Positions 8,421 to 32,000 of a stretch of DNA of 32,000 nt are shown here, piece by piece (within the stretch, counting starts at the first letter, position 1; every line of letters begins with the position of its first letter). The translations under genes and the position numbers were made by a program. Source of the stretch: Candidatus Iainarchaeum sp. Its GTDB lineage: Archaea > Iainarchaeota > Iainarchaeia > Iainarchaeales > JACQJH01. The stretch spans positions 330,001 to 362,000 of the forward strand of contig JACQJH010000002.1 of NCBI GenBank assembly GCA_016205145.1, read 5' to 3'. The notes below the pieces were generated by a model. That model saw nothing but the letters and a program-made list of their open reading frames with translations. It had not been told where the DNA came from and made no database searches.

Positions 8421-9926
8421 TCAATAGCTTTTCGCAAAATACGCCTTTTTTTCCGCGCGCTTTCCGCACACAACGCACTTTCCGCCGGAAGGCTTTTGGC
8501 CGAATGGGACGCAGCGGCTTGACGCGGTTGTTTCCGCCTTGATTTTTTCCTCGCAATCCCTTGACATGCAGAATGGCGCCAGAACCATTTTTTTTGCTTC
8601 AAGCGCCTTCACAAGTTCGGGGTGCGATGACGCTTCGCAGGTGTTTTCCTTCAAAAACCTTTGCGCGTTTTTGAGCAGGCATTCCTGCATTTCAGCAAGC
8701 GCTTTTTCCGCTTCCGCGGCGATGGCGGAGACGCTGACAAACTCTTTTTTGCCCGTGTCGCGCCGGACAATGACCGCCTGCTTTTTTGCCATGTCCTTGG
8801 GGCCGATTTCAATGCGCAAAGGAATCCCCTTCAGCTCCCATTCGTTGAATTTCCATCCCGGCGAATAGCCTTCGCGGTCGTCAAGAACCGGGTTGAGCGA
8901 TGCGAGCTTTTTTTCAAGCTCCTTCGCCGCCGCCAGAACCTTTTCCTTGTCCGTGTCGAAATAAATGGGCACAATGACGCACTTGTTGAACGCAACATTT
9001 GGCGGAAGCACAAGGCCCTTGTCGTCGGAGTGCACCATTATGGTTGCGCCAATCAGCCTTGTTGTGAAGCCCCACGAATTCTGCCAGGCAAAATGGCTTT
9101 CCTTGTCCTTTCCGAGAAATGAAATGCCGAACGCCCTTGCAAAATTCTGCCCGAGATTGTGCGAGGTGCCCATCTGCAACGCCTTCCCGTCAGGCATCAG
9201 CGCCTCGATAGTGAAAGTCTGCTTTGCGCCCGCAAATTTCTCCGACTCGGTTTTTTCGCCGGTAATGACGGGAATTGCAAGCAGTTGCCCGCACAATTCC
9301 CGGTATTCCTCCAAAAACATCAGAGCTTCCTTCACGCACTCTTCCTCTGTTTCGTAGACGCAGTGGCCTTCCTGCCACAGGAATTCCCTTGTGCGCAGGA
9401 AAAGCTTTGTCTGCTTGACCTCCCAGCGCAGAATGTTGCACCACTGGTTGAGGCGCAGGGGCAAATCGCGCCACGAGCGAATCCACTTGGAATATGCGTC
9501 GTACATTATGGTTTCGGACGTCGGCCTGATCGCAACCCTTTCACCCGAGCCTTCCTTTCCCTCGACCCACGCAAGCTCGGGGGCAAAGCCTTCCGCGTGC
9601 TCGGCTTCCTTTGAAAAAAACGATTCCGGAATCAGCAAGGGAAAGTACGCGTTCAAAACGCCTTTTGCCTGGATGACTGCGTTGAATCGGTCCTGAATTT
9701 TCTGCCACACCATGTAAGCGCGCGGCCTCACAATCATGAAGCCGGCTACCGGCGCGTAATCCGCAAGCTCGGCCTTGAGCACGACCTCGTTGTACCAGTC
9801 CGAAAAGTTTTCGGACTTTTTTACGGTCATGCCCTCGGTGTTTTTAGCGTTCTCAGAAGCCTTGCCGCCCGCCATGGCTTTTGCATCGTTGCCGTGGATT
9901 TTTTCCTTTCCAGCCATTCCAATCAC
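8421..9926 (-). CDS. proS: Prolyl-tRNA synthetase, archaeal/eukaryotic type (no INS editing domain)
   Basis: Begins NFSDWYNEVVLKAEL. It has a class II core (FLRTREFLWQEGH) and a C-terminal Zn-type domain ending AYFAKSY. The maximal ORF starts at GTG 9926 (GTGA overlap with proB). ATG 9917, or ATG 9830 preceded by GAGG, are alternatives. Confidence 0.9.
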   Translation of the reverse strand: MIGMAGKEKIHGNDAKAMAGGKASENAKNTEGMTVKKSENFSDWYNEVVLKAELADYAPVAGFMIVRPRAYMVWQKIQDRFNAVIQAKGVLNAYFPLLIPESFFSKEAEHAEGFAPELAWVEGKEGSGERVAIRPTSETIMYDAYSKWIRSWRDLPLRLNQWCNILRWEVKQTKLFLRTREFLWQEGHCVYETEEECVKEALMFLEEYRELCGQLLAIPVITGEKTESEKFAGAKQTFTIEALMPDGKALQMGTSHNLGQNFARAFGISFLGKDKESHFAWQNSWGFTTRLIGATIMVHSDDKGLVLPPNVAFNKCVIVPIYFDTDKEKVLAAAKELEKKLASLNPVLDDREGYSPGWKFNEWELKGIPLRIEIGPKDMAKKQAVIVRRDTGKKEFVSVSAIAAEAEKALAEMQECLLKNAQRFLKENTCEASSHPELVKALEAKKMVLAPFCMSRDCEEKIKAETTASSRCVPFGQKPSGGKCVVCGKRAEKKAYFAKSY

Positions 9927-10720
9927 TTCAGGAAAAGCGTTCCGTTCTGCCTGCCAGAAAAAATTTTTCCAAGCGCGCCGGTTTCGCCTTTCGTAATGAT
10001 TAGGGGAATCCCCTTTTTTAAAACGATTTTCGCGGCCTGCATTTTGGTTTCAAAGCCGCCCCTGCCCAAAGCGGATTTCCCTTTCAGCGATGCCCCGACT
10101 TTTGAAATGTCGGAAACCACTGGAATGATTTTCGCGTCGCCGTTCGTCAAGGGATTCTTGTCATACAGGCCATCCACATTCGTGAAAATTACAAGCAAAT
10201 CAGCTTTCAGGTGCACTGCCACGAGCGCGGACAAAACGTCGTTGTCGGAAAAAGCCTTTTTCGATGCAAGCTCTTCGACAGCCACGGCGTCATTTTCGTT
10301 TACGACCGGCACTACGCCGAGCCTGAGAAGCTCCCCGAAAGTGTTTTTCAGGTTTTTCAAAGCTTTCCGGTTGTCAAAGTTGTGCTGGGTAAGCAGGATC
10401 TGCGCTATTTTAAGCCCCGGCTTTGAAAACGCCTTGCCGAATTCGCGCATCAGGATTTTCTGGCCCACCGCCGCAACCGCCTGCTGCAATGGAACGGGCA
10501 TGGGCTTTCCGTTCAGGCCAAGCTCCTGCGCGCCCAAACCGATTGCGCCGCTTGAAACAATGACGAATTTCCTGCCATTGGCACTCTGCTCCGCAATGGT
10601 CTGCGCAAGGCCCTCCGCAAAAGAAAAATTGAATGAGCCGTTCTCGACCGCAACCTGCGTGCCAAGCTTGAGCACGACAAGCCTTGCGCCCGCAAAATCG
10701 TTAAACTTGCGCACAGTCAT
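9923..10720 (-). CDS. proB: Glutamate 5-kinase (short form, no PUA domain)
   Basis: Has the amino-acid-kinase N-terminus VVLKLGTQV and the VIVSSGAIGLG motif. It has an ATGA overlap with proA. Confidence 0.85.
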   Translation of the reverse strand: MTVRKFNDFAGARLVVLKLGTQVAVENGSFNFSFAEGLAQTIAEQSANGRKFVIVSSGAIGLGAQELGLNGKPMPVPLQQAVAAVGQKILMREFGKAFSKPGLKIAQILLTQHNFDNRKALKNLKNTFGELLRLGVVPVVNENDAVAVEELASKKAFSDNDVLSALVAVHLKADLLVIFTNVDGLYDKNPLTNGDAKIIPVVSDISKVGASLKGKSALGRGGFETKMQAAKIVLKKGIPLIITKGETGALGKIFSGRQNGTLFLK

Positions 10721-11970
10721 TCCCTCACCTGGCCGTGGCCTTCAACTATAAACTTCACAGAAGTCAACTCCTTCAGCGCAAACGGCCCCCTGCAATGCAG
10801 CTTCTGAGTCGAGATGCCCATCTCCGCGCCCAGGCCGAAAACGCCGCCGTCAGTGAAACGCGTGCTTGCGTTGGCGTAAACCGCCGCCGAATCAACGTTG
10901 GCCAGGAATTTGCGGATATTTTTTTCGTCCCCTGAAACAATCGAATCCGAATGGTGCGTGCCATGCGCATTGATGTGCGCAATCGCCTCGTCAACGCTTC
11001 CGACCTGCCTGACGGCAAGAATCAGGTCCAGGAATTCGGTATCGTAATCCTTCGCCTTCGCAGCCTTCACTCCGGCAAGGCCCTTAAGCAACGCCAAAGA
11101 TTTTTTGTCAACGCGCAGTTCAACGCCTTTTTCCAGCAATGCCTTCGCAGCAACGGGCAGGAAAGACCGGGCAATTTTTTCGTGCACAAGCAGTGATTCC
11201 ATGGCGTTGCAGACCGAGGGCCTCTGCGTCTTCGCATTCACGCAAATCCTGACAGCCGAAGCAGTGTCCGCGCTTTCGTCGACGAAAACATGGCATATTC
11301 CGGAACCGGTTTCAATTACGGGCACACGCGAATTTTCGACGACAAAGCTGATGAGCTTTGCTCCGCCACGCGGAATAATCAAATCAACCATGCCGCGCGC
11401 GTCGAACATTTTTTTTACCGCCCCATGCCCGGCCTCGCCGAACAATTGCACGCTGCCGTCAGGCAGGCCGGCTGAAGAGATTGCCTTGCGCATCACTTCA
11501 ACGATTTTCCTGTTCGAATTTATCGTCGAAGACGAGCCGCGCAGAATGACCGCGTTCCCGGATTTCAGGCACAGCACCGCCGCATCAACCGCAACGTTCG
11601 GCCTCGCCTCAAAAATCATGCCAATCACACCCAAAGGCACGCGCACCTTTCTGATGTGCAGGCCGCCTTTCTGCGAGTAATCCTCCAAAACTTCCCCGAC
11701 CGGGTCCGGCAGGACAACGATGTCATTGATTGAATCCGCAATCGCCGCAACCCTCTTTTCGTCCAGAGACAGCCTGTCAACCAGGGAATTCGAATCGCCC
11801 CGCTTTCGCGCAGCCCTGACATCCAGTGAGTTGGCCGCAAGAATCGCCTTTTCATTTTCCCGCAACGCACGCGCAACTGCCTTGAGCGCGCTGTTTTTTT
11901 GTTCCGTTGACGCCTGGGCCAAGGCAAAAGCCGCTTTTCTCGCGGCACGCGCAATTTTTCCGAACGTCAT
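10717..11970 (-). CDS. proA: Gamma-glutamyl phosphate reductase
   Basis: Contains IFEARPNV and the catalytic-Cys context CNAMESLLVH. Length is 417 aa. It has an ATGA overlap with proC. Confidence 0.9.
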   Translation of the reverse strand: MTFGKIARAARKAAFALAQASTEQKNSALKAVARALRENEKAILAANSLDVRAARKRGDSNSLVDRLSLDEKRVAAIADSINDIVVLPDPVGEVLEDYSQKGGLHIRKVRVPLGVIGMIFEARPNVAVDAAVLCLKSGNAVILRGSSSTINSNRKIVEVMRKAISSAGLPDGSVQLFGEAGHGAVKKMFDARGMVDLIIPRGGAKLISFVVENSRVPVIETGSGICHVFVDESADTASAVRICVNAKTQRPSVCNAMESLLVHEKIARSFLPVAAKALLEKGVELRVDKKSLALLKGLAGVKAAKAKDYDTEFLDLILAVRQVGSVDEAIAHINAHGTHHSDSIVSGDEKNIRKFLANVDSAAVYANASTRFTDGGVFGLGAEMGISTQKLHCRGPFALKELTSVKFIVEGHGQVRE

Positions 11971-12764
11971 TCTCCCAGCTCCCTGGAACGCCTGACAGCC
12001 GCAAAAACCGCTTCCCTCAGCTTTTCACGCACGCCCGCATCCTGCAAAACCTTCAATCCGGCCTCGGTCGTTCCGCCCCTGCTTGCAACCATTGCAATCA
12101 AATCACCGGCGGACAGATTCTTTTCAAGCAGGATTCTGCCTGTGCCAAGCATTGTCTGCCCTGCAAGCAGCCGCGCCTCATTCTCGGACAGGCCGGATTC
12201 AACCGCGGCCTCGCAGAACGCCTGCATTGCAAACGCGAAAAAAGCGGGGCCGCTTCCGGACAAAGCCGTGACCGCGTCAATTTTTTCCTCGGCAACCTCG
12301 ACGATTTTCCCGCAGCTGCCGAACAGGAATTCGACAAGCTTCCTGTCTTTCACCGTGGCCTTTCCCCCAAGCGAATAAGCTGCCGCCATCTCCTGCACAA
12401 GGCAGTTCACGTTCGGCATGACGCGCACGACACGCGCACCGGAAAGCCTCGGCTCGATGAACGCAATGCCTTTGCCCGCGCAAATCGAAATGACAAGATG
12501 CTTTCCGGAAACCGCCCCGGAAATTTCATCCAGGACTCCGGCAAGGTTCTGCGGCTTGACCGATAAAACCACGACAGACGATTTTCCTGCAAGCTCAACG
12601 TTCGACGAAACCGCATTGCACTTCACTGCTTTCTTGAACGCGCCAAGCCTTTTCGCGTCCACGTCGCTGGCAAGAATGTCCTTGGCATGGCACCGCTTGC
12701 CGGCAACAAAGCCTTTCGCCAGGGCCTCAGCCATTTTTCCCGCGCCAATGAAACCGATCTTCAT
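11967..12764 (-). CDS. proC: Pyrroline-5-carboxylate reductase
   Basis: Contains the Rossmann motif IGFIGAGKMAEAL and the C-terminal SRGGTTEAGL motif. A TATA-like box (rc AAAAATAAAAG) lies about 26 nt upstream of the ATG. Confidence 0.9.
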   Translation of the reverse strand: MKIGFIGAGKMAEALAKGFVAGKRCHAKDILASDVDAKRLGAFKKAVKCNAVSSNVELAGKSSVVVLSVKPQNLAGVLDEISGAVSGKHLVISICAGKGIAFIEPRLSGARVVRVMPNVNCLVQEMAAAYSLGGKATVKDRKLVEFLFGSCGKIVEVAEEKIDAVTALSGSGPAFFAFAMQAFCEAAVESGLSENEARLLAGQTMLGTGRILLEKNLSAGDLIAMVASRGGTTEAGLKVLQDAGVREKLREAVFAAVRRSRELGE

Positions 12765-12808
12765 CGCACAACACTTTGCATTCCATTGCTTTTATTTTTT
12801 TGCATGCA

Positions 12809-12882
12809 TGGGAGAGAGGAGATTCGAACTCCTGTCGCTGCCACCCCAAGGCAGTATACTGACCAGGCTATACTACTCCCCC
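12809..12882 (-). tRNA. tRNA-Pro (GGG)
   Basis: The reverse complement folds with acceptor GGGGGAG/CTCTCCC, anticodon stem CTGCC/GGCAG, loop TTGGGGT and T arm AGGAG-TTCGAAT-CTCCT. The discriminator is A and no CCA is encoded. Confidence 0.85.
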
Positions 12883-12900
12883 TCGCCGACACGTCCGCAG

Positions 12901-12958
12901 CCGATTTCGTCCGGCTGGTCCGACGACGGGTACACCGCTGCGCGCTGTACCCATCTGC
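12901..12958 (+). repeat. 58-nt two-hairpin element, copy 2
   Basis: Same orientation as 3773-3830. The five differences fall in loops or flank, or form a compensatory pair (G:C at 3806/3818 becomes A:T at 12934/12946). It lies 18 nt upstream of the tRNA-Pro(GGG) 5' end on the minus strand. Confidence 0.7.
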
Positions 12959-13033
12959 GCTGTTAATTTGACTCATCACGCACCCTACAAAAACCCTGCA
13001 CGCGTGGTATCGCAATGCGATACCACAAGGCTC

Positions 13034-13064
13034 CACACGCGCGAGCAGGCGCGTTGGGGCTGCC
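13034..13064 (-). pseudogene. Duplicated fragment of the tRNA-Pro(UGG) 3' end plus its trailer hairpin
   Basis: CACACGCGC-N6-GCGCGTTGGGGCTGCC at 13034-13064 matches 13163-13193 (25/31). Only the 6-nt hairpin loop differs. No complete cloverleaf can be folded around it. Confidence 0.5.
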
Positions 13065-13183
13065 GGCTTCAAACGCAGGGGGCTCCGCCCCCTCGCACGC
13101 CCCTGAAACATTTAATACTGGCCTACTCGGCGTGTCGCATCGGCGGCACGCCTTGGTTTCGGCACACGCGCCCGAAAGCGCGT

Positions 13184-13258
13184 TGGGGCTGCCCGGATTT
13201 GAACCGGGGTCGCCAACTCCCAAAGCTGGTATCCTGGACCAGGCTAGACTACAGCCCC
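13184..13258 (-). tRNA. tRNA-Pro (UGG)
   Basis: The reverse complement folds with acceptor GGGGCTG/CAGCCCC, anticodon stem CCAGC/GTTGG, loop TTTGGGA and T arm CCCGG-TTCAAAT-CCGGG. The discriminator is A. Confidence 0.88.
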
Positions 13259-18206: not shown

Positions 18207-19541
18207 ATGGCTGTCAAGGACCTGCTGAAAAAGCACGGGCTCAAAGAATCCGATCTGGTTGAAATAGCCAGTGGCAAAACCGTCCTGAAAGGCACGATCA
18301 TTCCGAGCAAAAACCCGGAAATACTCGAACTGAAGCTTTCAAGCGGCTACAATGCAGGCATCATCGCAAAGGAAATTTCCGGGATAAAGAAGCTGGGCGA
18401 AGGCAAAAGCGTTTCGAAAGCCAAAACGCAAAGCTTTCCACAAAAACCCGGCCTGCCCAGAATCGCAATCCTGCACACCGGCGGAACGATTGCAAGCCGC
18501 GTGGACTACAGGACGGGTGCGGTCTTTTCAAGCTTCCAGACCGAGGACCTGCTGACGATGTTTTCCGAACTGCACGCAATCGCGAACATTTCATCCGAGC
18601 ACCTTTCAAACATGTGGTCCGAGGACATGCGCTTTGACCATTACAAAATCATGGCGAAAGCCGTCGAAAAGGAAGTGAAAAAAGGCGTTGACGGAATCAT
18701 CATCGCGCATGGCACTGACACGATGCATTATTCCTCGGCCGCATTGGCATTCGCATTGGAAAACGTTCCGGTCCCGGTCATACTTGTAGGAGCACAGCGC
18801 AGTTCGGACAGGGGCTCAAGCGATGCCGCCATGAACCTGGTCTGCGCCGCAACATTCATGGCAAAAACCGATTTTGCGGGAGTCGCAATCTGCATGCACC
18901 ACTCCGCGTCGGACGACAGCTGTGCAATCCTGCCTGCATGCAAGACAAGGAAAATGCACACTTCCCGCAGGGACGCGTTCAAGGCGGTCAACGGAAAGCC
19001 AATAGCGCTTGTCGACTTCAGGTCAAGGAACGTCGAGTTCATCGAAAAAAATTTTGCGAAAAAGGGTGCCGGAAAGCTCGCTGTCAAGGACAAGTTCGAG
19101 GAAAAGACCGGCATTTTGAAGGCGCACACCAACATGTTCGCTGAAGAAATAGACTTTTACAGGAAGCAAAAATACAAGGGCCTTATCCTGGAAGGCTTTG
19201 CTCTTGGCCAGTTCCCGATTGCTGCGCCGAACCCGCAGGCGAAAAAAAACCTTGAAGTGAAAAAGGCGCTTGAAAAGCTCATCAAATCCGGCTGCGTTGT
19301 CGTTATGGCCTCGCAGTGCATTTTCGGGCGCGTCCATATGCACGTTTACGACAAGGCGGTTGACCTGCAGAACATGGGCGTGGTTCCGGCGGAGGACATG
19401 ACATCCGAAACCGCGTTCATAAAGCTTGCATGGCTTTTGGGCAATTATCCGAAAAAAGAGGTTGCCGCCCTGGTCGGCAAAAATCTGCGCGGCGAAATAT
19501 CAGACAGGACGGAATTCGAGGAACAATTTCCGGGGGACTGA
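18207..19541 (+). CDS. gatD: Glutamyl-tRNA(Gln) amidotransferase subunit D
   Basis: Has an asparaginase-like core with ILHTGGTIAS and AHGTDTM motifs and an archaeal GatD-type N-terminal extension. Length is 444 aa. Confidence 0.9.
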   Translation: MAVKDLLKKHGLKESDLVEIASGKTVLKGTIIPSKNPEILELKLSSGYNAGIIAKEISGIKKLGEGKSVSKAKTQSFPQKPGLPRIAILHTGGTIASRVDYRTGAVFSSFQTEDLLTMFSELHAIANISSEHLSNMWSEDMRFDHYKIMAKAVEKEVKKGVDGIIIAHGTDTMHYSSAALAFALENVPVPVILVGAQRSSDRGSSDAAMNLVCAATFMAKTDFAGVAICMHHSASDDSCAILPACKTRKMHTSRRDAFKAVNGKPIALVDFRSRNVEFIEKNFAKKGAGKLAVKDKFEEKTGILKAHTNMFAEEIDFYRKQKYKGLILEGFALGQFPIAAPNPQAKKNLEVKKALEKLIKSGCVVVMASQCIFGRVHMHVYDKAVDLQNMGVVPAEDMTSETAFIKLAWLLGNYPKKEVAALVGKNLRGEISDRTEFEEQFPGD

Positions 19542-19544
19542 AAA

Positions 19545-19862
19545 TTGATTGACGAAACAAGGCTTCTGGCAATCGGCATTGCCGGCATTGCACTGCTGCT
19601 GCTTGCATTCGTTCTGGAGCACAGGAAAGGATTGCACAGGAAAGGCGTGTATTTCAACCTGCTCAATTTTGCCGGCTCGGAGCTGCTTGCATGGTATGCC
19701 TTTGAAAAAAGCGACATCGTTTTCCTTGTGCTCAACGCGGTTTGGGCGATGATTGCAGCATACTTCCTGCTGAAAATCCTTTGGGCGAAGCTCGGCAAGA
19801 GGCGCTGGGACCCGGACGACGTGATGGACGACGAGGGCCTGGAAAGGCTGCCGGGCGCGTAA
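19545..19862 (+). CDS. Small three-TM membrane protein
   Basis: Three hydrophobic segments, including the pattern YFNLLNFAGSELLAWY...LNAVWAMIAAYFLLK. The TTG start is uncertain. Confidence 0.5.
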   Translation: MIDETRLLAIGIAGIALLLLAFVLEHRKGLHRKGVYFNLLNFAGSELLAWYAFEKSDIVFLVLNAVWAMIAAYFLLKILWAKLGKRRWDPDDVMDDEGLERLPGA

Positions 19863-19868
19863 AAAAAG

Positions 19869-20906
19869 TCAATCCCTTTCAACGACATGATAAGGCAGCT
19901 GGCTCTGCTCGCGTTCAAAAGCCTCAAGCAGTTCCCTTGCCTTGGCAAGGTCAAGCTTGGCCTCATCAGCCGCCTGCTCCAATCCCTTGCCCCGCCTCAT
20001 TTTAGCTATAAGTGAAAAAAGCTTTCTTCCCTCGACAGCGCCCAAGCCAAGCCGCACCGTCAAATCAGCCCTCATCGCGTCAAGCACCGCGCCCTGCACG
20101 CGCTGGCGAACATATGCCTTCAGGCTTGCCTCGCTCTTTTCCCGGTCGGCTGCGGCCGCAATGCGATAAGACAGCAGCTCAACATCATTGCCGATTTCAT
20201 CAAGCATTTCCGGCTGAACCCAGTATCTGCCGCCATACGCCCTCAGCGCGGTTCTGGCAAGCGGCATCACTGTTTCCGCCCTGACCCGTTCCTGGGGCAT
20301 GGAAAGCTCAGGCAATGGTTTTGCGGGCTTTCGCTTAATCGGCGCCACATATGAATCATACTTGTCGCCCCCGATCGCTTTCCGGATTAGTTTTAAATCA
20401 TAGACAACCGCCGGCACCGACACGCCAAGAATCCGTGCTGTTTCAACCGCGTTCCGCCCGTTCTTTAACTGCTCGAAAACCCGTACCCTGCGCAGACCGC
20501 GCTCTATGCCCTGTCCGGTTATTGCAGTTGGAGAGCGCTGTCCTTTCATGCGATTCCCAGATTCCAACAGATACTGGCTGACACGCCCCTCACTCACACC
20601 AAGCCTTTGGGCTATTTCAACATGCGTCATATGCTCGTTTGTGCTCATCGCGACCGCACGCGCCATTCTTTCCGCGGCAACCCGCCTCTGGCGCAAACGG
20701 CTGGCATTGTCAAACATTCCGCGCTTCCATGGCACGACGCCTCGTTTCAATCCGCTTAAATAATGGTCAACGCTACTCGGGTTAAAACCGGTTTCCGCTA
20801 TGATTTCCGGCCTGGATTTTCCTTCCCGGGCAAGGTCGAAAACCCTGTTCATTTTCCAGGCCCTGGCCTCAACAGCTTCCCGGCTTGCAACACTGCGCCG
20901 CTTCAT
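19869..20906 (-). CDS. Multi-HTH DNA-binding protein with sigma-70-like segments
   Basis: At least three HTH units are present (PEIIAETGFNPSSVDHYL, HVEIAQRLGVSEGRVSQYL, AVETARILGVSVPAVVYDL). There is also a FliA-like segment, YVRQRVQGAVLDAMR. The protein is Arg-rich, unlike its neighbours. A TATA-like box lies about 25 nt upstream of ATG 20906. Confidence 0.7.
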   Translation of the reverse strand: MKRRSVASREAVEARAWKMNRVFDLAREGKSRPEIIAETGFNPSSVDHYLSGLKRGVVPWKRGMFDNASRLRQRRVAAERMARAVAMSTNEHMTHVEIAQRLGVSEGRVSQYLLESGNRMKGQRSPTAITGQGIERGLRRVRVFEQLKNGRNAVETARILGVSVPAVVYDLKLIRKAIGGDKYDSYVAPIKRKPAKPLPELSMPQERVRAETVMPLARTALRAYGGRYWVQPEMLDEIGNDVELLSYRIAAAADREKSEASLKAYVRQRVQGAVLDAMRADLTVRLGLGAVEGRKLFSLIAKMRRGKGLEQAADEAKLDLAKARELLEAFEREQSQLPYHVVERD

Positions 20907-20998
20907 GCAAATAATAGACTCTTAAGAGATTAATAAAAACCGACCCAAACAAGTTTCAATTAAAAGGCTTTTCCTGCCAATTTTTTTCTGGTTTGCCG

Positions 20999-22888
20999 AT
21001 GGAAACTGATTTGCAGAACCCCGGCCTGAAATGCGGCCTCGAAGTGCATCAGCAGCTTGACACAGGAAAGCTGTTCTGCAGGTGCCCGTCGGTGCTCAGG
21101 GACTACAAGCCCGATTTTTCCGTGAGAAGGAAGCTGAGGCCGGTCGCATCAGAACTCGGCGAATTCGACCTGGCCGCATTGGAGGCATTCAGGAAAAACC
21201 TCGAATTCGTTTACGAGGGCTACAACGACACGACCTGCCTCATAGAGCTTGACGACGAGCCGCCGAAAGCCGCGGACAAGGATGCGCTTGAAACGGTTTT
21301 GAAAATCTGCATCATGGCTGGCGCGGACATTCTTGACGAGGTCATTGTCATGCGCAAAACCGTGATTGACGGCTCGAACACTTCCGGTTTCCAGCGCACG
21401 ATGCTCGTTTCCCTGGGCGGAAAATTGAAACTGAAAAACAAGGAGCTCGGCATCCAGACCATTGCTTTGGAGGAGGATGCCTGCAGGCCGTCGCAGAAAA
21501 CCGGCAGCGAGGTTTTTTACAGGCTCGACAGGCTCGGCATTCCCTTGATAGAGCTTGCCACGGAGCCAGGCATAAAGTCGCCGGAAGAGGCCAGGGAAGC
21601 CGCATTGAAGATCGGCGAGCTTTTCCGCAGGACGTGCAAGGCGAGGCGCGGCCTCGGCACGATTAGACAGGACCTGAACATTTCGATTGCCGAAGGGGCG
21701 AGGGTTGAAATCAAGGGAGTGCAGAACCTTGATTTGATGGACGAATTCGTGCGAAGGGAAATCCTGCGCCAGCAGAATCTCATCGAACTGCGCGAACAAC
21801 TCCTGATGCTCGGCGTTTCCGAAGAGGATTTTGCGCTTCCCCCTGAGGACATCACGCCTATTTTTGCCGGAACCAATTCGGGGCTGCTGAAAAAAAGCCT
21901 TGAAAAAGGCGAAAGCATTCTTGCAATCAGGTTCCCGAAAATGGTGGGCCTGCCGGGAATGGAACTGCAGCCGAACCGCAGGTTCGGCACGGAACTGTCA
22001 GACCATGTCAAGGCGAAAGCTGGGTTGCATGGCCTGATGCATTCCGACGAATTGCCCGCTTACGGCATTTCGCACGAAGAGGTTTCGGAAATAAGGAGAA
22101 CGCTTGGCTGTTCCGAACACGACGCATTCGCATTCGTGGTCGGCCAAAAGGAAAAATGCGTTTCCGCCTTGCAGGCTGTTTCGGAAAGGTGCGTTCAGGC
22201 GCTGAAAGGCGTGCCCGAAGAAACGCGCAACGCATTGGATGACGGGAACACTTCCTACAGCAGGCCTCTGCCGGGCGCCGCAAGGATGTATCCTGAAACG
22301 GACATTGCGCCTGTCCGAGTTGACAAAAAATTGCTGAAAGAACTTGAAAAAGACCTGCCATTGACGGTTGAAGAGCGCCTGGACCTTTACAAAAAGCGCG
22401 GCCTGAGCGGCAAGCTTGCGAACGAAATGGGGCTTGACAATTTCGCGGCCTTTTTCGAATCATTGCTGAAAAAAGGCTTCAATGCAACAACCGCGGCAGT
22501 GTTCCTGCTCGAAGGCCTGACACAGCTGAGGCGCGAAGGCCTTTCCGTCGACGGCATTTCAAATGAAACGATTGAAAAAATTTTGTCGGCGGAAAAATCC
22601 GGAAAAATCCTGAAAGACGATCTGCTTGAAACCGCCCGAAGCGTGCTGCAGGGCAAAAGCCTCGATGGCGCGGTCAGGGAAAAGGCGGACGGCAAAGCGG
22701 GAAACAAAGAAATAGAGGAAGCGGTCAAAAGGATTGTTGAACGGAATGCCTTGCTCATCAAGGAAAAGGGAACCGGCGCGTTCGCCGCGCTCATGGGCGA
22801 CGCTATGAAAGAGCTTGGCGGAAAAGCGTCCGGAAAGGACATTTCAGAGGCGTTGAAAAGGGAGCTGCGGAAAAATGCCGGAACCTGA
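20999..22888 (+). CDS. gatE: Glutamyl-tRNA(Gln) amidotransferase subunit E
   Basis: Begins GLKCGLEVHQQLDTGKLFCRCPS, the GatB/E signature. It has the GatE-specific insertion and length. ATG 20999 is preferred over TTG 20993. Confidence 0.9.
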   Translation: METDLQNPGLKCGLEVHQQLDTGKLFCRCPSVLRDYKPDFSVRRKLRPVASELGEFDLAALEAFRKNLEFVYEGYNDTTCLIELDDEPPKAADKDALETVLKICIMAGADILDEVIVMRKTVIDGSNTSGFQRTMLVSLGGKLKLKNKELGIQTIALEEDACRPSQKTGSEVFYRLDRLGIPLIELATEPGIKSPEEAREAALKIGELFRRTCKARRGLGTIRQDLNISIAEGARVEIKGVQNLDLMDEFVRREILRQQNLIELREQLLMLGVSEEDFALPPEDITPIFAGTNSGLLKKSLEKGESILAIRFPKMVGLPGMELQPNRRFGTELSDHVKAKAGLHGLMHSDELPAYGISHEEVSEIRRTLGCSEHDAFAFVVGQKEKCVSALQAVSERCVQALKGVPEETRNALDDGNTSYSRPLPGAARMYPETDIAPVRVDKKLLKELEKDLPLTVEERLDLYKKRGLSGKLANEMGLDNFAAFFESLLKKGFNATTAAVFLLEGLTQLRREGLSVDGISNETIEKILSAEKSGKILKDDLLETARSVLQGKSLDGAVREKADGKAGNKEIEEAVKRIVERNALLIKEKGTGAFAALMGDAMKELGGKASGKDISEALKRELRKNAGT

Positions 22889-30265: not shown

Positions 30266-32000
30266 CTATTTGAGCAGTTTGGCGAATTTTTCCCCGAGCT
30301 GCTTTGCGTCGGCCTTTCCGCGCAGTTCGCGCATCGCCAATCCGACCAGGAAGTTCAAGGCCTTTTCCCCGCCATTTTTGTAGTCTGCCGCGGCGGCAGG
30401 GTTTGCCGCGACAACCCTTGCTATTGCCGCATCAACATCCCCCGAGCCGGCGTCCTTCAGCAAATCGTTCTTTTTGAGGAAATCCAGCGGCTCGGCTTTT
30501 TCATTGACGTACGCAATCATCGCTTCCTTGGCGTTCTTTTCTGAAACTTTTCCCTGTTCGAGCAGGCGCAGTAGCCCCGCAATCTTGGCTGGTTCAAGGT
30601 TCAGCCGCTTCAGGTCTAGGCCCGAGCGGTTTGCGATTGCAAGAAGCTCGCGAGTCAGGAAAGAGGCTGCAAGCTTTGGCTCAACGCCTTTCGCTGTTTC
30701 CTCGAACAGCCTTCCAAGCGTTGCGTCGGATGAAAGCACTTTTGCCGTATAATCGTCCAATCCGAATTCCCTGCCGAAGCGCCCCGCCTTATTGGAATGC
30801 AGTTCCGGCAGGCCTTTCTTGATTTCATGCAGTTCCGCTTCCAAAACAACGGTTTTGACCAGGTCGGAATCAAAAATATAGCCGTAGTCGTCCTCGGTTT
30901 CCTTCAGCCTCAGCCTTTTCGTCACAAGGCCTTTCTCGTCAAACGACCTTGTTTCCCTTTCAACTTTTTTCCCCGCTGACAGAACCTTTCTCTGCCTCGC
31001 AATCTCGAATTCTAGGGCCTTTTCGACAAACCGGAAGCCGGAAATGTTCTTGACTTCGACGCGCTCGGAACCCTCGATTGAGGCGTTCGAATCGACTTTC
31101 AAAGTGTTCTTTCCCTGCTCGAAAACTTCCAGGTATTCGAGCATTTTGAGCAGTTCGTCCAGGAATTCGCGCGTTTCCTCCGGCTTTCCGAAATCCGGTT
31201 CCGTGACAATCTCGCACAGCGGAATGCCGGAACGGTTGTAGTCGATAAGGGAATAGGCCGAGCCGTGAATGCCGCCCTCGTGCACCAATGCCGCGGGATC
31301 CTCTTCCAGGTGGATGCGCCTTATGCGGATGGTTTTGCCGGATGGCAGCTTTACACTGCCGTTCTCCCCGACCGGAATCTCGAACTGCGTTATCTGGTAG
31401 TCCTTCGCCAGGTCGGGATAAAAGTATGTCTTGCGGCTGAAAAAAAATTCATTGTTGACCCTGCAGCCCAGTGCAAGGCAAAGCTTCAATGCAAAGTCGA
31501 CGGCTTTCCTGTTCAGGACCGGCTTGCTGCCCGGCATGCCAAGACAGGTTTCACAGCAATGCGAATTCGGCTCAGCTTCGGCAGTGGAACAGCCGCAGAA
31601 AAGCTTTGACTGCGTGTCCAGCTGCACGTGCACTTCTAGGCCCATGACTGGCGCGGGCCCGGAAACCTGTTCAACCGAATAATTGTCAACTGCATTGAGC
31701 AGTTTTTGCGGCGCAATTATTATGCCCGCGGTTTCAATTCCGGCATTGAAGCTTATCTCATTGTTTGAAAACAATGGTTTGTCGAAAATTTTTTTCACGC
31801 CATCAATCACGGGCGGGACGAGGCCTACAACGCAGCCGGTGTGCTTTTCGACTTCCTCGGAACTTGCAAGCCGGACAAGCTTTGCATTCGCGATTTGCAC
31901 CAGCCTTTTCTCGTCAACGCTCCGGTCACCGGACAGGACAACCAGCAACGGCTTTCCGTCCACGATGTACAGCAGGGTCTTGGCAATCTGCCTGAGCTGC
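30266..32000 (-). CDS. gatB: YbaK/ProX-like aminoacyl-tRNA editing domain fused in frame to Asp/Glu-tRNA amidotransferase subunit B (5' end outside window)
   Basis: The reading frame is open from the window edge (QLRQIAKTLLYIVDGKPLLVVLSGDRSVDEKRL...EEVEKHTGCVVGLVPP...ISFNAGIE, a tRNA_edit/YbaK pattern). It continues into the GatB core (MGLEVHVQLDTQSKLFCGCS...) and the C-terminal GatB/YqeY tail, with no stop codon between the two parts. Confidence 0.8.
   Translation of the reverse strand, partial: QLRQIAKTLLYIVDGKPLLVVLSGDRSVDEKRLVQIANAKLVRLASSEEVEKHTGCVVGLVPPVIDGVKKIFDKPLFSNNEISFNAGIETAGIIIAPQKLLNAVDNYSVEQVSGPAPVMGLEVHVQLDTQSKLFCGCSTAEAEPNSHCCETCLGMPGSKPVLNRKAVDFALKLCLALGCRVNNEFFFSRKTYFYPDLAKDYQITQFEIPVGENGSVKLPSGKTIRIRRIHLEEDPAALVHEGGIHGSAYSLIDYNRSGIPLCEIVTEPDFGKPEETREFLDELLKMLEYLEVFEQGKNTLKVDSNASIEGSERVEVKNISGFRFVEKALEFEIARQRKVLSAGKKVERETRSFDEKGLVTKRLRLKETEDDYGYIFDSDLVKTVVLEAELHEIKKGLPELHSNKAGRFGREFGLDDYTAKVLSSDATLGRLFEETAKGVEPKLAASFLTRELLAIANRSGLDLKRLNLEPAKIAGLLRLLEQGKVSEKNAKEAMIAYVNEKAEPLDFLKKNDLLKDAGSGDVDAAIARVVAANPAAAADYKNGGEKALNFLVGLAMRELRGKADAKQLGEKFAKLLK

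What the first reader, a model, noticed from the sequence alone, without database searches (positions are those of the whole stretch)
30266..32000. In-frame fusion of a YbaK/ProX-type trans-editing domain to GatB
The minus-strand frame is open from the window edge with no stop codon.
- The first 120 or so visible residues are ...IAKTLLYIVDGKPLLVVLSGDRSVDEKRLVQIANAKLVRLASSEEVEKHTGCVVGLVPPVIDG...ISFNAGIETAGIIIAPQKL.
- This has the hallmark pattern of the YbaK/ProRS-INS aminoacyl-tRNA deacylase fold.
- It runs straight into the GatB N-terminus (VMGLEVHVQLDTQSKLFCGCS).

GatB normally starts at that GLEVH motif. I do not recognise a deacylase for mischarged tRNA fused to the tRNA-binding and kinase subunit of a transamidase as a described architecture. 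The ProRS in this window is the archaeal type and lacks an editing insertion. gatA and gatC are not adjacent, and GatD/GatE are also present. The fusion could proofread or channel misacylated tRNA on a transamidosome-like complex.
Basis: partly seen in the sequence, partly recalled or inferred. Interest (0 to 1): 0.7.

Follow-up and report, generated by a model that had tools for sequence, protein, structure and literature searches.

The report
Editing domain fused to archaeal GatB
An uncultured DPANN archaeon has a tRNA-proofreading (YbaK/ProX-type) domain built into GatB, the enzyme subunit that converts Asp-tRNA(Asn) to Asn-tRNA(Asn); the fusion is real, conserved and not found described in the literature searched, and it may be a previously unseen fidelity checkpoint.

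Summary
The minus-strand frame 30266-31999 is open from the window edge to its stop. It encodes tRNA_edit (Pfam E 1.3e-19), then GatB_N, then GatB_Yqey. The same DNA occurs in two independent assemblies, which give the full gene (609 aa as called, probably about 618).

It is not an artefact. Thirty-three protein clusters from Iainarchaeota (Diapherotrites) carry this domain on GatB, in two architectures:
- N-terminal, as in this window (13 clusters).
- Inserted between the two Cys pairs of the GatB N-terminal knuckle (20 clusters).

The catalytic Lys and the GxxxP loop are invariant. The domain is as conserved as the GatB core. They lie just beyond the window edge, in a bacterial-type aspS-gatC-gatA-gatB operon.

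The nearest relatives of the domain are cradle-less "edit plus GatB-tail" proteins, one encoded directly after a gatB gene. A neighbouring clade is sometimes fused to AspRS. Close relatives (84-89% identical GatB) lack the domain altogether.

Best reading: a deacylase tethered to GatB that acts on tRNA(Asn) held by the GatB tail. The substrate is unknown.

I found no description in the literature searched. I rate it a new variant of a known kind, interest about 0.65.

The parts
30266..32000 (-). Visible part (577 of about 609-618 codons) of the edit::gatB fusion gene. The stop codon is at 30266-30268 and the 5' end runs off the window.
   Evidence: The identical full-length gene is in L001 and L002.
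31661..31999 (-). INS/YbaK-superfamily aminoacyl-tRNA editing domain (tRNA_edit). This is fragment residues 1-113, equal to P0001 residues 33-145. The first ~32-41 residues lie beyond the window.
   Evidence: Pfam PF04073, 71 bits. PDB sequence hit 1WDV, E 2.5e-12. AF2 pLDDT 87-96 and Foldseek TMt 0.83-0.87 to 2CX5, 1WDV and 1DBU.
31979..31981 (-). Codon of the invariant Lys (QIAK motif). It is the equivalent of the catalytic, A76-phosphate-binding Lys of YbaK, INS and ProXp-ala.
   Evidence: Invariant in 17 of 17 aligned fused domains. Aligned to the IVKTL/IVKSL Lys of 1WDV and 2CX5. Its role is taken from published work on the family, not tested here.
31811..31837 (-). The TGCVVGLVPP segment, which is the GxxxP loop of the INS superfamily.
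   Evidence: T86, C88, G91, V93, P94 and P95 are invariant.
31646..31660 (-). Short linker (GPAPV) between the editing domain and GatB strand beta-1.
   Evidence: The linker sequence is not conserved among N-type orthologues.
31643..31645 (-). Internal ATG just before GLEVH. This is where unfused GatB proteins start.
   Evidence: A Met is absent here in 6 of 14 N-type proteins.
30839..31648 (-). GatB cradle (catalytic) domain, GatB_N.
   Evidence: Pfam E 3.8e-88. Foldseek matches to GatB chains 3IP4_B, 3H0L_B, 3AL0_B, 3KFU and 4WJ3.
31544..31597 (-). Four-Cys knuckle (FCGC...CCETC) of the GatB N-terminus. In 20 orthologous clusters the editing domain is inserted between the two Cys pairs (equivalent site about 31571-31582).
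   Evidence: C167, C169, C181 and C184 are invariant in 33 sequences. The insertion is shown. Metal binding is inferred, not tested.
30272..30709 (-). GatB helical/tail (YqeY-like) tRNA-binding domain.
   Evidence: Pfam GatB_Yqey, E 2.2e-32. The tRNA-binding role comes from PMC2811023.
8421..9926 (-). Context: archaeal-type ProRS without an editing insertion.
18207..19541 (+). Context: GatD.
20993..22888 (+). Context: GatE, a GatB paralogue with a GAD insertion.

Best explanation
This is a genuine single-polypeptide fusion. An INS-superfamily aminoacyl-tRNA deacylase domain, closest to A. pernix APE2540 and T. thermophilus ProXp-x, is joined to the N-terminus of the GatB subunit of an Iainarchaeota (Diapherotrites, DPANN) GatCAB. 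The gene is the last of a bacterial-type aspS-gatC-gatA-gatB operon, that is, the machinery for making Asn-tRNA(Asn) by the indirect route.

Proposed mechanism (inferred, not shown):
- GatB's helical/tail domain holds the tRNA elbow, as in other GatCAB enzymes.
- The flexible aminoacyl-CCA end can reach either the kinase/transamidase pocket of the cradle or the deacylase pocket, which is tethered about 10 residues from strand beta-1 of that cradle.
- Aminoacyl-tRNA(Asn) that is not converted to Asn-tRNA(Asn) is hydrolysed instead of being released to the elongation factor. Candidates are un-amidated Asp-tRNA(Asn), or a tRNA(Asn) carrying another wrong residue.

The domain would thus be a cis-acting proofreading site on the amidotransferase. 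GatB supplies the tRNA binding that free-standing INS-like proteins lack.

Shown: the fusion, its conservation, the intact catalytic motifs, the operon, and the recurrent pairing with GatB-type tails.
Inferred: deacylase activity, the target tRNA, and the identity of the hydrolysed amino acid.
For: 1. The fusion is real.
- HMMs.
- Identical DNA in three assemblies.
- 33 fused clusters at 46-62% identity to the window protein, plus the cluster that holds it (P0001, 100%).

2. The two parts function as one protein. In 20 clusters the domain is inserted inside the GatB N-terminal knuckle. AF2 models of both architectures keep both folds (pLDDT 86.2 and 84.7).

3. The domain is probably active.
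- The Lys, the GxxxP loop and the SFNAG motif are invariant.
- Mean pairwise identity is 57.6% for the domain against 54.2% for the GatB core, with r = 0.71 over 496 pairs.

4. It is linked to the Asn pathway. Every fused locus examined whose contig extends far enough upstream carries gatC and gatA just upstream of the fusion; a bacterial-type AspRS gene was confirmed ahead of gatC in L001 and in the unfused sister operons.

5. It is linked to the GatB tail.
- The nearest relatives of the domain by distance are tRNA_edit+GatB_Yqey proteins.
- P0161 is colinear with the window protein minus the cradle.
- P0200 is encoded immediately after a gatB gene, and its tail is 62% identical to that GatB's tail.

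6. A neighbouring clade of the same superfamily is repeatedly fused to the C-terminus of AspRS. This occurs in CPR bacteria and in an archaeal-looking contig, once with gatC-gatA 3 kb away. No ProRS fusion appears among the 150 nearest relatives.

7. There is a precedent. H. pylori GluRS2 hydrolyses excess Glu-tRNA(Gln) in the Gln-transamidosome (PMC3241645).
Against: - No activity or substrate data exist.
- Hydrolysing GatCAB's own substrate would be wasteful unless it is kinetically gated.
- The closest characterised relative, ProXp-x, acts on Abu- and Ala-tRNAs and prefers A73 (PMC11295145). From general knowledge, tRNA(Asn) has G73. The tRNA(Pro) genes in this window have A73.
- The domain is dispensable on evolutionary time scales. 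At least five fused/unfused sister pairs share 84-89% GatB identity, and the unfused genomes show no close free-standing copy.
- The tools gave no coordinates, so I could not measure the distance between the deacylase pocket and the GatB pocket.
- NJ bootstrap support for the sister relationship with the edit-YqeY proteins is weak, at 0.37 or below.
Confidence: 0.5

Rival explanations
1. The domain is a general trans-editing factor that merely rides on GatB. It would be a ProXp-x-like deacylase for small or non-protein residues (Abu, Ala, Cys, Ser) on tRNA(Pro) or other A73 tRNAs. Fusion would give co-expression, stability or unspecific tRNA affinity in a reduced genome. Its targets would have nothing to do with tRNA(Asn) or transamidation.
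For: - The closest solved or characterised relatives are APE2540 and ProXp-x TTHA1699.
- ProXp-x edits Abu/Ala-tRNAs with A73.
- ProRS in the window lacks an editing domain, and both tRNA(Pro) genes have A73.
- No other close tRNA_edit homologue was found in these lineages.
- Patchy loss fits an accessory fidelity factor.
Against: - The fusion partners of this clade and its neighbour are always GatB, GatB-type tails or AspRS. None is ProRS or another synthetase.
- A piggy-back explanation does not predict insertion into the GatB catalytic domain in 20 clusters.
- It also does not predict a cradle-less edit+GatB-tail paralogue next to gatB.
Confidence: 0.3
2. The domain is a non-hydrolytic module that binds the aminoacyl-CCA end. 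It would capture or hand over the acceptor end between AspRS and GatB, or protect the ester bond, so stabilising a transamidosome-like complex rather than editing.
For: - It is placed next to the cradle in both architectures.
- GatCAB is known to protect aa-tRNA ester bonds (PMC3241645).
- It sits in a transamidosome-type operon.
Against: The residues that define catalysis in the superfamily (the Lys, the GxxxP loop) are invariant across 17 diverse fused domains. Binding alone would not require that. Close relatives manage without the domain.
Confidence: 0.12
3. The fusion is an artefact or is not expressed as such. A sequencing or assembly error hides a stop or frameshift between two genes, or GatB is translated only from the internal ATG at 31643-31645.
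For: - A Met precedes GLEVH in this gene.
- One related MAG carries a disrupted copy (P0121 in L004/L009).
Against: - The sequence is identical in three assemblies.
- 33 clusters keep the frame.
- There is no junction Met in 6 of 14 N-type proteins.
- Insertion-type orthologues cannot express GatB separately.
- The ATG at L001:4281, the likely true start, lies just after the same GAAGGGATGA stretch that precedes the gatB start in the unfused relative.
Confidence: 0.03

Closest known systems
INS editing domain of bacterial ProRS (cis-editing; same superfamily)
   Same: It has the same fold and the same catalytic Lys and GxxxP motifs. It is also a deacylase domain built into an enzyme that handles the acceptor end of a specific tRNA. 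In the type-I relatives the domain is likewise inserted inside the host's catalytic domain.
   Different: The host here is a tRNA-dependent amidotransferase subunit, not a synthetase. In the window protein the domain is N-terminal, not inserted. The substrate is unknown.
Free-standing ProXp-x (T. thermophilus TTHA1699, PDB 2CX5/2Z0K) and A. pernix APE2540 (PDB 1WDV)
   Same: These are the closest solved structures. Sequence E-values are 2.5e-12 (1WDV) and 1.4e-6 (2CX5). Foldseek gives TMt 0.83-0.87 and rmsd 1.7-1.8 A over 148 columns.
   Different: They are single-domain proteins that act in trans. Identity is only 25-31%. The GatB-fused domains form their own tight group: profile scores drop from 197 bits for the lowest-scoring member of the fused group (P0121) to 118 bits for the best outsider.
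ProXp-ala fused to the N-terminus of ProRS in lower eukaryotes (e.g. Plasmodium; per PMC11295145)
   Same: An INS-superfamily domain is fused to the N-terminus of a tRNA-handling enzyme.
   Different: The partner is the synthetase that makes the error. Here the partner is the enzyme that repairs a programmed 'error'.
Deinococcus radiodurans GlnRS-YqeY fusion (PMC1865053)
   Same: It shows that a GatB-type tail can be lent to another catalytic module to provide productive tRNA binding. That is the logic proposed here and seen in the edit+GatB_Yqey relatives.
   Different: The catalytic partner there is a synthetase, and no editing domain is involved.
GatE, the GatB paralogue with an AspRS-like GAD insertion (present in this window, 20993-22888)
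   Same: It is a precedent for the GatB/GatE cradle tolerating a synthetase-derived inserted domain.
   Different: GAD is not a deacylase, and the insertion site is different.
Hydrolysis of excess Glu-tRNA(Gln) by GluRS2 in the H. pylori Gln-transamidosome (PMC3241645)
   Same: It is a functional precedent. A component of the indirect pathway removes a mischarged intermediate that escapes amidation.
   Different: That activity resides in the synthetase itself, with no dedicated editing domain.

Membership tests
INS / YbaK superfamily (Pfam tRNA_edit, PF04073) | Profile match above the curated threshold | tested here: met
   71 bits against 25.5, E 1.3e-19, on the truncated window copy. Full-length relatives score 70-90 bits.
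INS / YbaK superfamily (Pfam tRNA_edit, PF04073) | YbaK-type alpha/beta fold | tested here: met
   In the AF2 model, residues 1-148 have pLDDT 87-96. Foldseek gives TMt 0.87 to 1WDV, 0.83-0.84 to 2CX5/2Z0K and 0.83 to 1DBU, with rmsd 1.7-2.7 A.
INS / YbaK superfamily (Pfam tRNA_edit, PF04073) | Invariant catalytic Lys and GxxxP loop | tested here: met
   K39, G91, P94 and P95 are invariant in 17 fused domains. The Lys aligns with that of 1WDV and 2CX5.
INS / YbaK superfamily (Pfam tRNA_edit, PF04073) | Aminoacyl-tRNA deacylase activity | not testable with these tools
   This needs enzyme assays.
YbaK sensu stricto (Cys-tRNA(Pro) deacylase, TIGR00011 / PRK10670) | Equivalog HMM above cutoff | tested here: not met
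   41 bits against a cutoff of 153.25, and 14 against 243. The review says YbaK is found only in bacteria.
ProXp-x | Groups with TTHA1699 to the exclusion of other INS families | tested here: inconclusive
   2CX5 and 1WDV fall near the GatB-fused group in NJ trees, but at Kimura distances of 1.5-1.9 and with low bootstrap support. I had no reference sequences for ProXp-7, -8 or -9.
GatB (TIGR00133 / NF004012) | Equivalog HMM above cutoff, with cradle, helical and tail domains | tested here: met
   503.9 against 338 and 446.4 against 314.8. Pfam GatB_N plus GatB_Yqey. Foldseek TMt 0.72-0.84 to GatB chains.
GatB (TIGR00133 / NF004012) | Encoded with gatC and gatA | tested here: met
   L001 reads gatC-HD-gatA-IMPase-[edit::gatB]. 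gatC and gatA precede the fusion in 9 of the 10 distinct fused loci L005-L016; in L016 and, for gatC, L004/L009 the contig ends first.
Asn-transamidosome (ND-AspRS + GatCAB + tRNA(Asn)) | AspRS gene associated with gatCAB | tested here: met
   A bacterial-type AspRS (tRNA-synt_2 + GAD) lies directly upstream of gatC in L001 and in the unfused sisters L019 and L020; tblastn matches to it lie upstream of gatC in several fused loci.
Asn-transamidosome (ND-AspRS + GatCAB + tRNA(Asn)) | AspRS is non-discriminating, AsnRS is absent, and a physical complex forms | not tested
   This needs whole genomes and biochemistry. Only flanks of 10 kb or less were available.

The most novel reading that the evidence does not exclude
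The domain is a dedicated deacylase for the mischarged intermediate of the indirect pathway, Asp-tRNA(Asn). The GatB tail guides it to tRNA(Asn), and it distinguishes Asp from Asn. That would make it the first dedicated editing site that polices tRNA-dependent transamidation. The AspRS-fused and cradle-less 'edit + GatB-tail' relatives in CPR bacteria and DPANN archaea would then be variants of one hitherto unrecognised Asx-tRNA quality-control system.
Probability: 0.25. Interest if true: 0.85.

Novelty: new variant of a known kind. Interest (0 to 1): 0.65.

Why it matters
Editing of mischarged tRNA is known on synthetases and on small free-standing proteins. The fidelity of the indirect Asn and Gln pathways is currently explained by substrate channelling in transamidosomes and by rejection at the elongation factor. 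Mutations in mycobacterial GatCAB show that this route leaks (PMC8406222 abstract).

A deacylase built into GatB would be a new kind of checkpoint, and it can be tested directly with recombinant protein.

The family also offers unusually clean natural experiments:
- The same domain sits at two permuted positions in GatB.
- There is a paralogue that keeps only the domain plus the GatB tail.
- Several sister pairs share 84-89% GatB identity, with and without the domain.

Databases currently label all of these simply as 'GatB'.

Tried and rejected
1. Sequencing error or frameshift. Rejected: the DNA is identical in L001 and L002, and 33 clusters keep the frame.

2. Split genes in 'unfused' relatives. 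Rejected for P0002, P0102 and P0019. The DNA shows gatB starting within 1-4 nt of the upstream gene, and a clean ~460-bp absence of the segment.

3. A free-standing close copy elsewhere. A profile search of 5.8 billion proteins found only P0121. That turned out to be a disrupted fused gene.

4. The long linker after the inserted domain in type-I proteins as a degenerate relic of a duplicated GatB N-terminal hairpin. No signal: HMM E of about 1.

5. The search for related loci with the 17-sequence alignment failed because it had no conserved stretch. It worked with an 8-sequence subset.

6. The 50%-identity representative library hides most fused proteins inside GatB clusters. Its count of three hits below 1e-30 is therefore not a census.

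7. Phylogeny of the editing domains. NJ bootstraps are too weak (0.37 or below) to order the N-type, I-type, edit-YqeY, P0156 and P0176 groups. I make no claim about which architecture is ancestral.

8. Literature. Searches on GatB+YbaK, Diapherotrites+amidotransferase+editing, ProXp-7/8/9, AspRS+YbaK+fused, APE2540 and PF04073 found no description of this architecture.

9. BLAST of the 38-aa ORF after P0176 against P0161 was uninformative. Its resemblance to the start of the GatB helical domain rests on inspection only.
Full report
**Observation.** The minus-strand frame of window 30266-31999 is open for 577 codons, from the window edge to a stop at 30266-30268. Pfam finds three domains:
- tRNA_edit at residues 3-101 (71 bits against a gathering score of 25.5, E 1.3e-19, profile positions 19-121 of 123).
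- GatB_N at residues 118-387 (E 3.8e-88).
- GatB_Yqey at residues 431-576 (E 2.2e-32).

NCBIfam GatB equivalogs score above their cutoffs. The strict YbaK model does not (41 against 153 bits). The internal Met is at 31643-31645.

The last 4,318 bases of the window are identical to two independently assembled public contigs, L001 and L002. These provide the missing 5' end and give a 609-aa protein, P0001. An ATG 27 nt upstream of the called GTG restores the conserved 'WVK' start of the domain seen in orthologues. It is probably the true start, giving about 618 aa.

**It is a real fusion and it is conserved.** Among the 120 best GatB relatives, 33 clusters of 589-705 aa carry PF04073+PF02934+PF02637. 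All are labelled only 'GatB' in their sources, and where the source names an organism they are from Diapherotrites/Iainarchaeum or unclassified archaeal MAGs. Besides the cluster that holds the window protein (P0001), they are 46-62% identical to it. A scan of one genome per species found 13 loci. Twelve carry the GatB fusion (one disrupted, L009) and L017 is a distant stand-alone homologue. The twelve are labelled Iainarchaeum, Forterrea or 'archaeon', apart from two contigs labelled Chloroflexi and Woesearchaeota that look mis-binned.

Reading the N-termini showed two architectures:
- Type N: 13 clusters, including this window. The domain precedes a complete GatB.
- Type I: 20 clusters. GatB starts normally (GLEIH...KLFCxC). 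The domain plus a ~35-aa acidic linker of low predicted confidence is then inserted before PNSxxCxxCLGxPGSKP, that is, between the two Cys pairs of the four-Cys knuckle. All four Cys are invariant.

Type I settles the question of expression, because GatB cannot be made there without the domain. In type N, 6 of 14 proteins have no Met at the junction.

AF2 models of both types keep both folds. The type N model has pLDDT 86.2 and pTM 0.76. The type I model has pLDDT 84.7. Foldseek matches the N-terminal domain to ProX TTHA1699, APE2540 and YbaK (TMt 0.83-0.87) and the rest to GatB chains.

**The domain looks functional.** In 17 diverse fused domains the Lys of QIAK, the GxxxP loop (TGCxVGLVPP) and SFNAG are invariant. 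Over 496 pairs, the domain is as conserved as the GatB core (57.6% against 54.2%) and the two co-vary (r = 0.71).

**Context.** Beyond the window edge lie bacterial-type aspS (tRNA-synt_2 + GAD), gatC, an HD hydrolase, gatA, an inositol-monophosphatase-family gene, and then the fusion. gatC and gatA precede the fusion in nearly all fused loci of both types where the contig reaches that far, and the unfused sister operons begin with the same bacterial-type aspS.

The window itself holds the following:
- GatD and GatE.
- An archaeal-type ProRS without an editing domain, in a tRNA(Pro)x2-proC-proA-proB-proS cluster.
- tRNA(Gln) with A1-U72.

**Patchy distribution.** Fused and unfused GatB interleave in a GatB-core tree. 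Five fused/unfused pairs share 84-89% identity: P0014/P0093, P0016/P0089, P0010/P0102, P0001/P0002 and P0011/P0101.

For the window's closest relative (P0002, 84%), the DNA alignment shows a clean presence/absence of about 460 bp with conserved flanks, and the probable ATG start of the fused gene lies in the same initiation region as the unfused gatB start. Two other unfused sisters also have no room for the domain.

A profile search found no close free-standing copy. The only candidate, P0121, is a disrupted fused gene. The domain is therefore accessory and is gained or lost repeatedly. I could not tell which.

**Relatives of the domain.** An exhaustive profile search found 5,111 tRNA_edit relatives. 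Scores drop sharply from the GatB-fused group (197 bits or more) to everything else (118 bits or less). Pfam scans of 20 multi-domain proteins among the next 150 gave:
- One divergent type-N GatB fusion (P0156).
- Two tRNA_edit+GatB_Yqey proteins (P0161, P0200).
- Eight AspRS proteins or C-terminal fragments with a C-terminal tRNA_edit.
- No ProRS fusion.

By distance and in NJ trees, the nearest neighbours of the GatB-fused domains are P0156, the edit-YqeY proteins and P0176. Bootstrap support is weak, at 0.37 or below.

Independent evidence ties the edit-YqeY proteins to GatB:
- P0161 aligns colinearly with the window protein over the editing domain (32%) and the helical/tail region (31%). 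It is, in effect, 'type N minus the cradle'.
- P0200 is encoded immediately after a gatB gene, with start and stop overlapping. Its tail is 62% identical to that GatB's tail.
- The 'solo' P0176 is followed, after a single in-frame TAG, by an ORF that by eye resembles the start of the GatB helical domain.

The AspRS-fused domains belong to a neighbouring clade. That clade is mostly free-standing in Patescibacteria and in Nano-/Woesearchaeota. One AspRS fusion sits 3 kb from gatC-gatA on an archaeal-looking contig.

**Mechanism.** Published work places tRNA binding by GatCAB in the GatB helical/tail domain. [quoted passage not shown]

Free-standing INS-like proteins lack a tRNA-binding domain (PMC11295145). 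The common denominator of the GatB-fused proteins and their nearest relatives is a GatB-type tail.

I therefore think the domain is most likely a deacylase that works on the tRNA held by GatB, namely tRNA(Asn). It would sit about ten residues from strand beta-1 of the cradle. From memory of published GatB structures, that strand carries active-site residues of the GLEIH motif. I did not verify this here.

The two permuted architectures are easiest to understand if the N-terminus and the loop after FCxC are neighbours in space. They would be the two ends of one beta-hairpin, so both designs would park the domain in the same place. This is inference, because I had no coordinates.

Which aminoacyl group is removed is unknown. 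The candidates are un-amidated Asp, or a residue mis-loaded by AspRS. There is a precedent for removing an escaped intermediate (GluRS2, PMC3241645).

The main rival is a ProXp-x-like general editor that simply rides on GatB. It is favoured by the affinity to ProXp-x, by A73 in tRNA(Pro), and by the absence of any other editor for the INS-less ProRS.

**Novelty.** None of my literature searches found this architecture. A 2024 specialist review states that INS-superfamily members other than INS are single-domain proteins. The parts are known, while the combination and its variants appear undescribed. I rate it a new variant of a known kind, interest about 0.65.

Noticed in passing
window 8421-13258 (minus strand): A 'proline island': tRNA-Pro(TGG), tRNA-Pro(GGG), proC, proA, proB and an archaeal-type proS, all on one strand. 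Both tRNA(Pro) genes have G1-C72 and A73.
   Followed up: partly
window 13034-13064 and 13163-13193: A 31-nt direct repeat (87% identical, 129 nt apart). It duplicates the 3' end of tRNA-Pro(TGG) plus about 21 nt downstream, and may be a scar of an integration at the tRNA.
   Followed up: no
L001 4281-4310 (just beyond the window edge): The gene caller starts the fused gene at a GTG (MKGWLEG...). An ATG 27 nt upstream gives MQGQKQGAWVKGWLEG..., which restores the WVK motif conserved in orthologues. It lies 3 nt after the stop of the upstream IMPase-family gene.
   Followed up: partly
L004 / L009 2505-4251 (Iainarchaeum MAG JAPLVT010000097): A disrupted copy of the fusion. The editing domain ORF (P0121, 181 aa) runs out of frame into the PNS...CxxC region, and the called GatB lacks its first ~35 residues. 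This is either a pseudogene or an assembly error.
   Followed up: partly
L021, L022, L023, L024 (proteins P0163, P0157, P0302/P0177; fragments P0165, P0168, P0206, P0229, P0264): AspRS with a C-terminal tRNA_edit domain occurs in CPR bacteria and on an archaeal-looking contig (bacterial-type AspRS with GAD, and gatC-gatA 3 kb downstream). I found no description of this architecture either.
   Followed up: partly
L026 3839-6165; L018 6001-6936; L025 483-1142: Cradle-less 'tRNA_edit + GatB helical/tail' proteins. In L026 the gene overlaps the stop of a normal gatB, and its tail is 62% identical to that GatB's tail. In L025 the two parts are separated by a single in-frame TAG.
   Followed up: partly
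proteins P0158 (448 aa) and P0159 (491 aa): These proteins consist of three tandem tRNA_edit domains.
   Followed up: no
L001 1459-2034 and 3495-4277; L019/L004 Lactamase_B gene: Unrelated hydrolase genes are interleaved in the gatCAB operon and conserved across several loci: an HD/YfbR-like gene, one or two inositol-monophosphatase-family genes, and a metallo-beta-lactamase-fold gene.
   Followed up: no
L007 and L011: Contigs that carry the Iainarchaeota-type operon are deposited as 'Chloroflexi bacterium' and 'Woesearchaeota archaeon' MAGs. This is probably mis-binning or mislabelling.
   Followed up: no
window 18207-22888: gatD and gatE are separated by a divergently transcribed 345-aa protein (19869-20906, minus strand) with several helix-turn-helix domains.
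   Followed up: no
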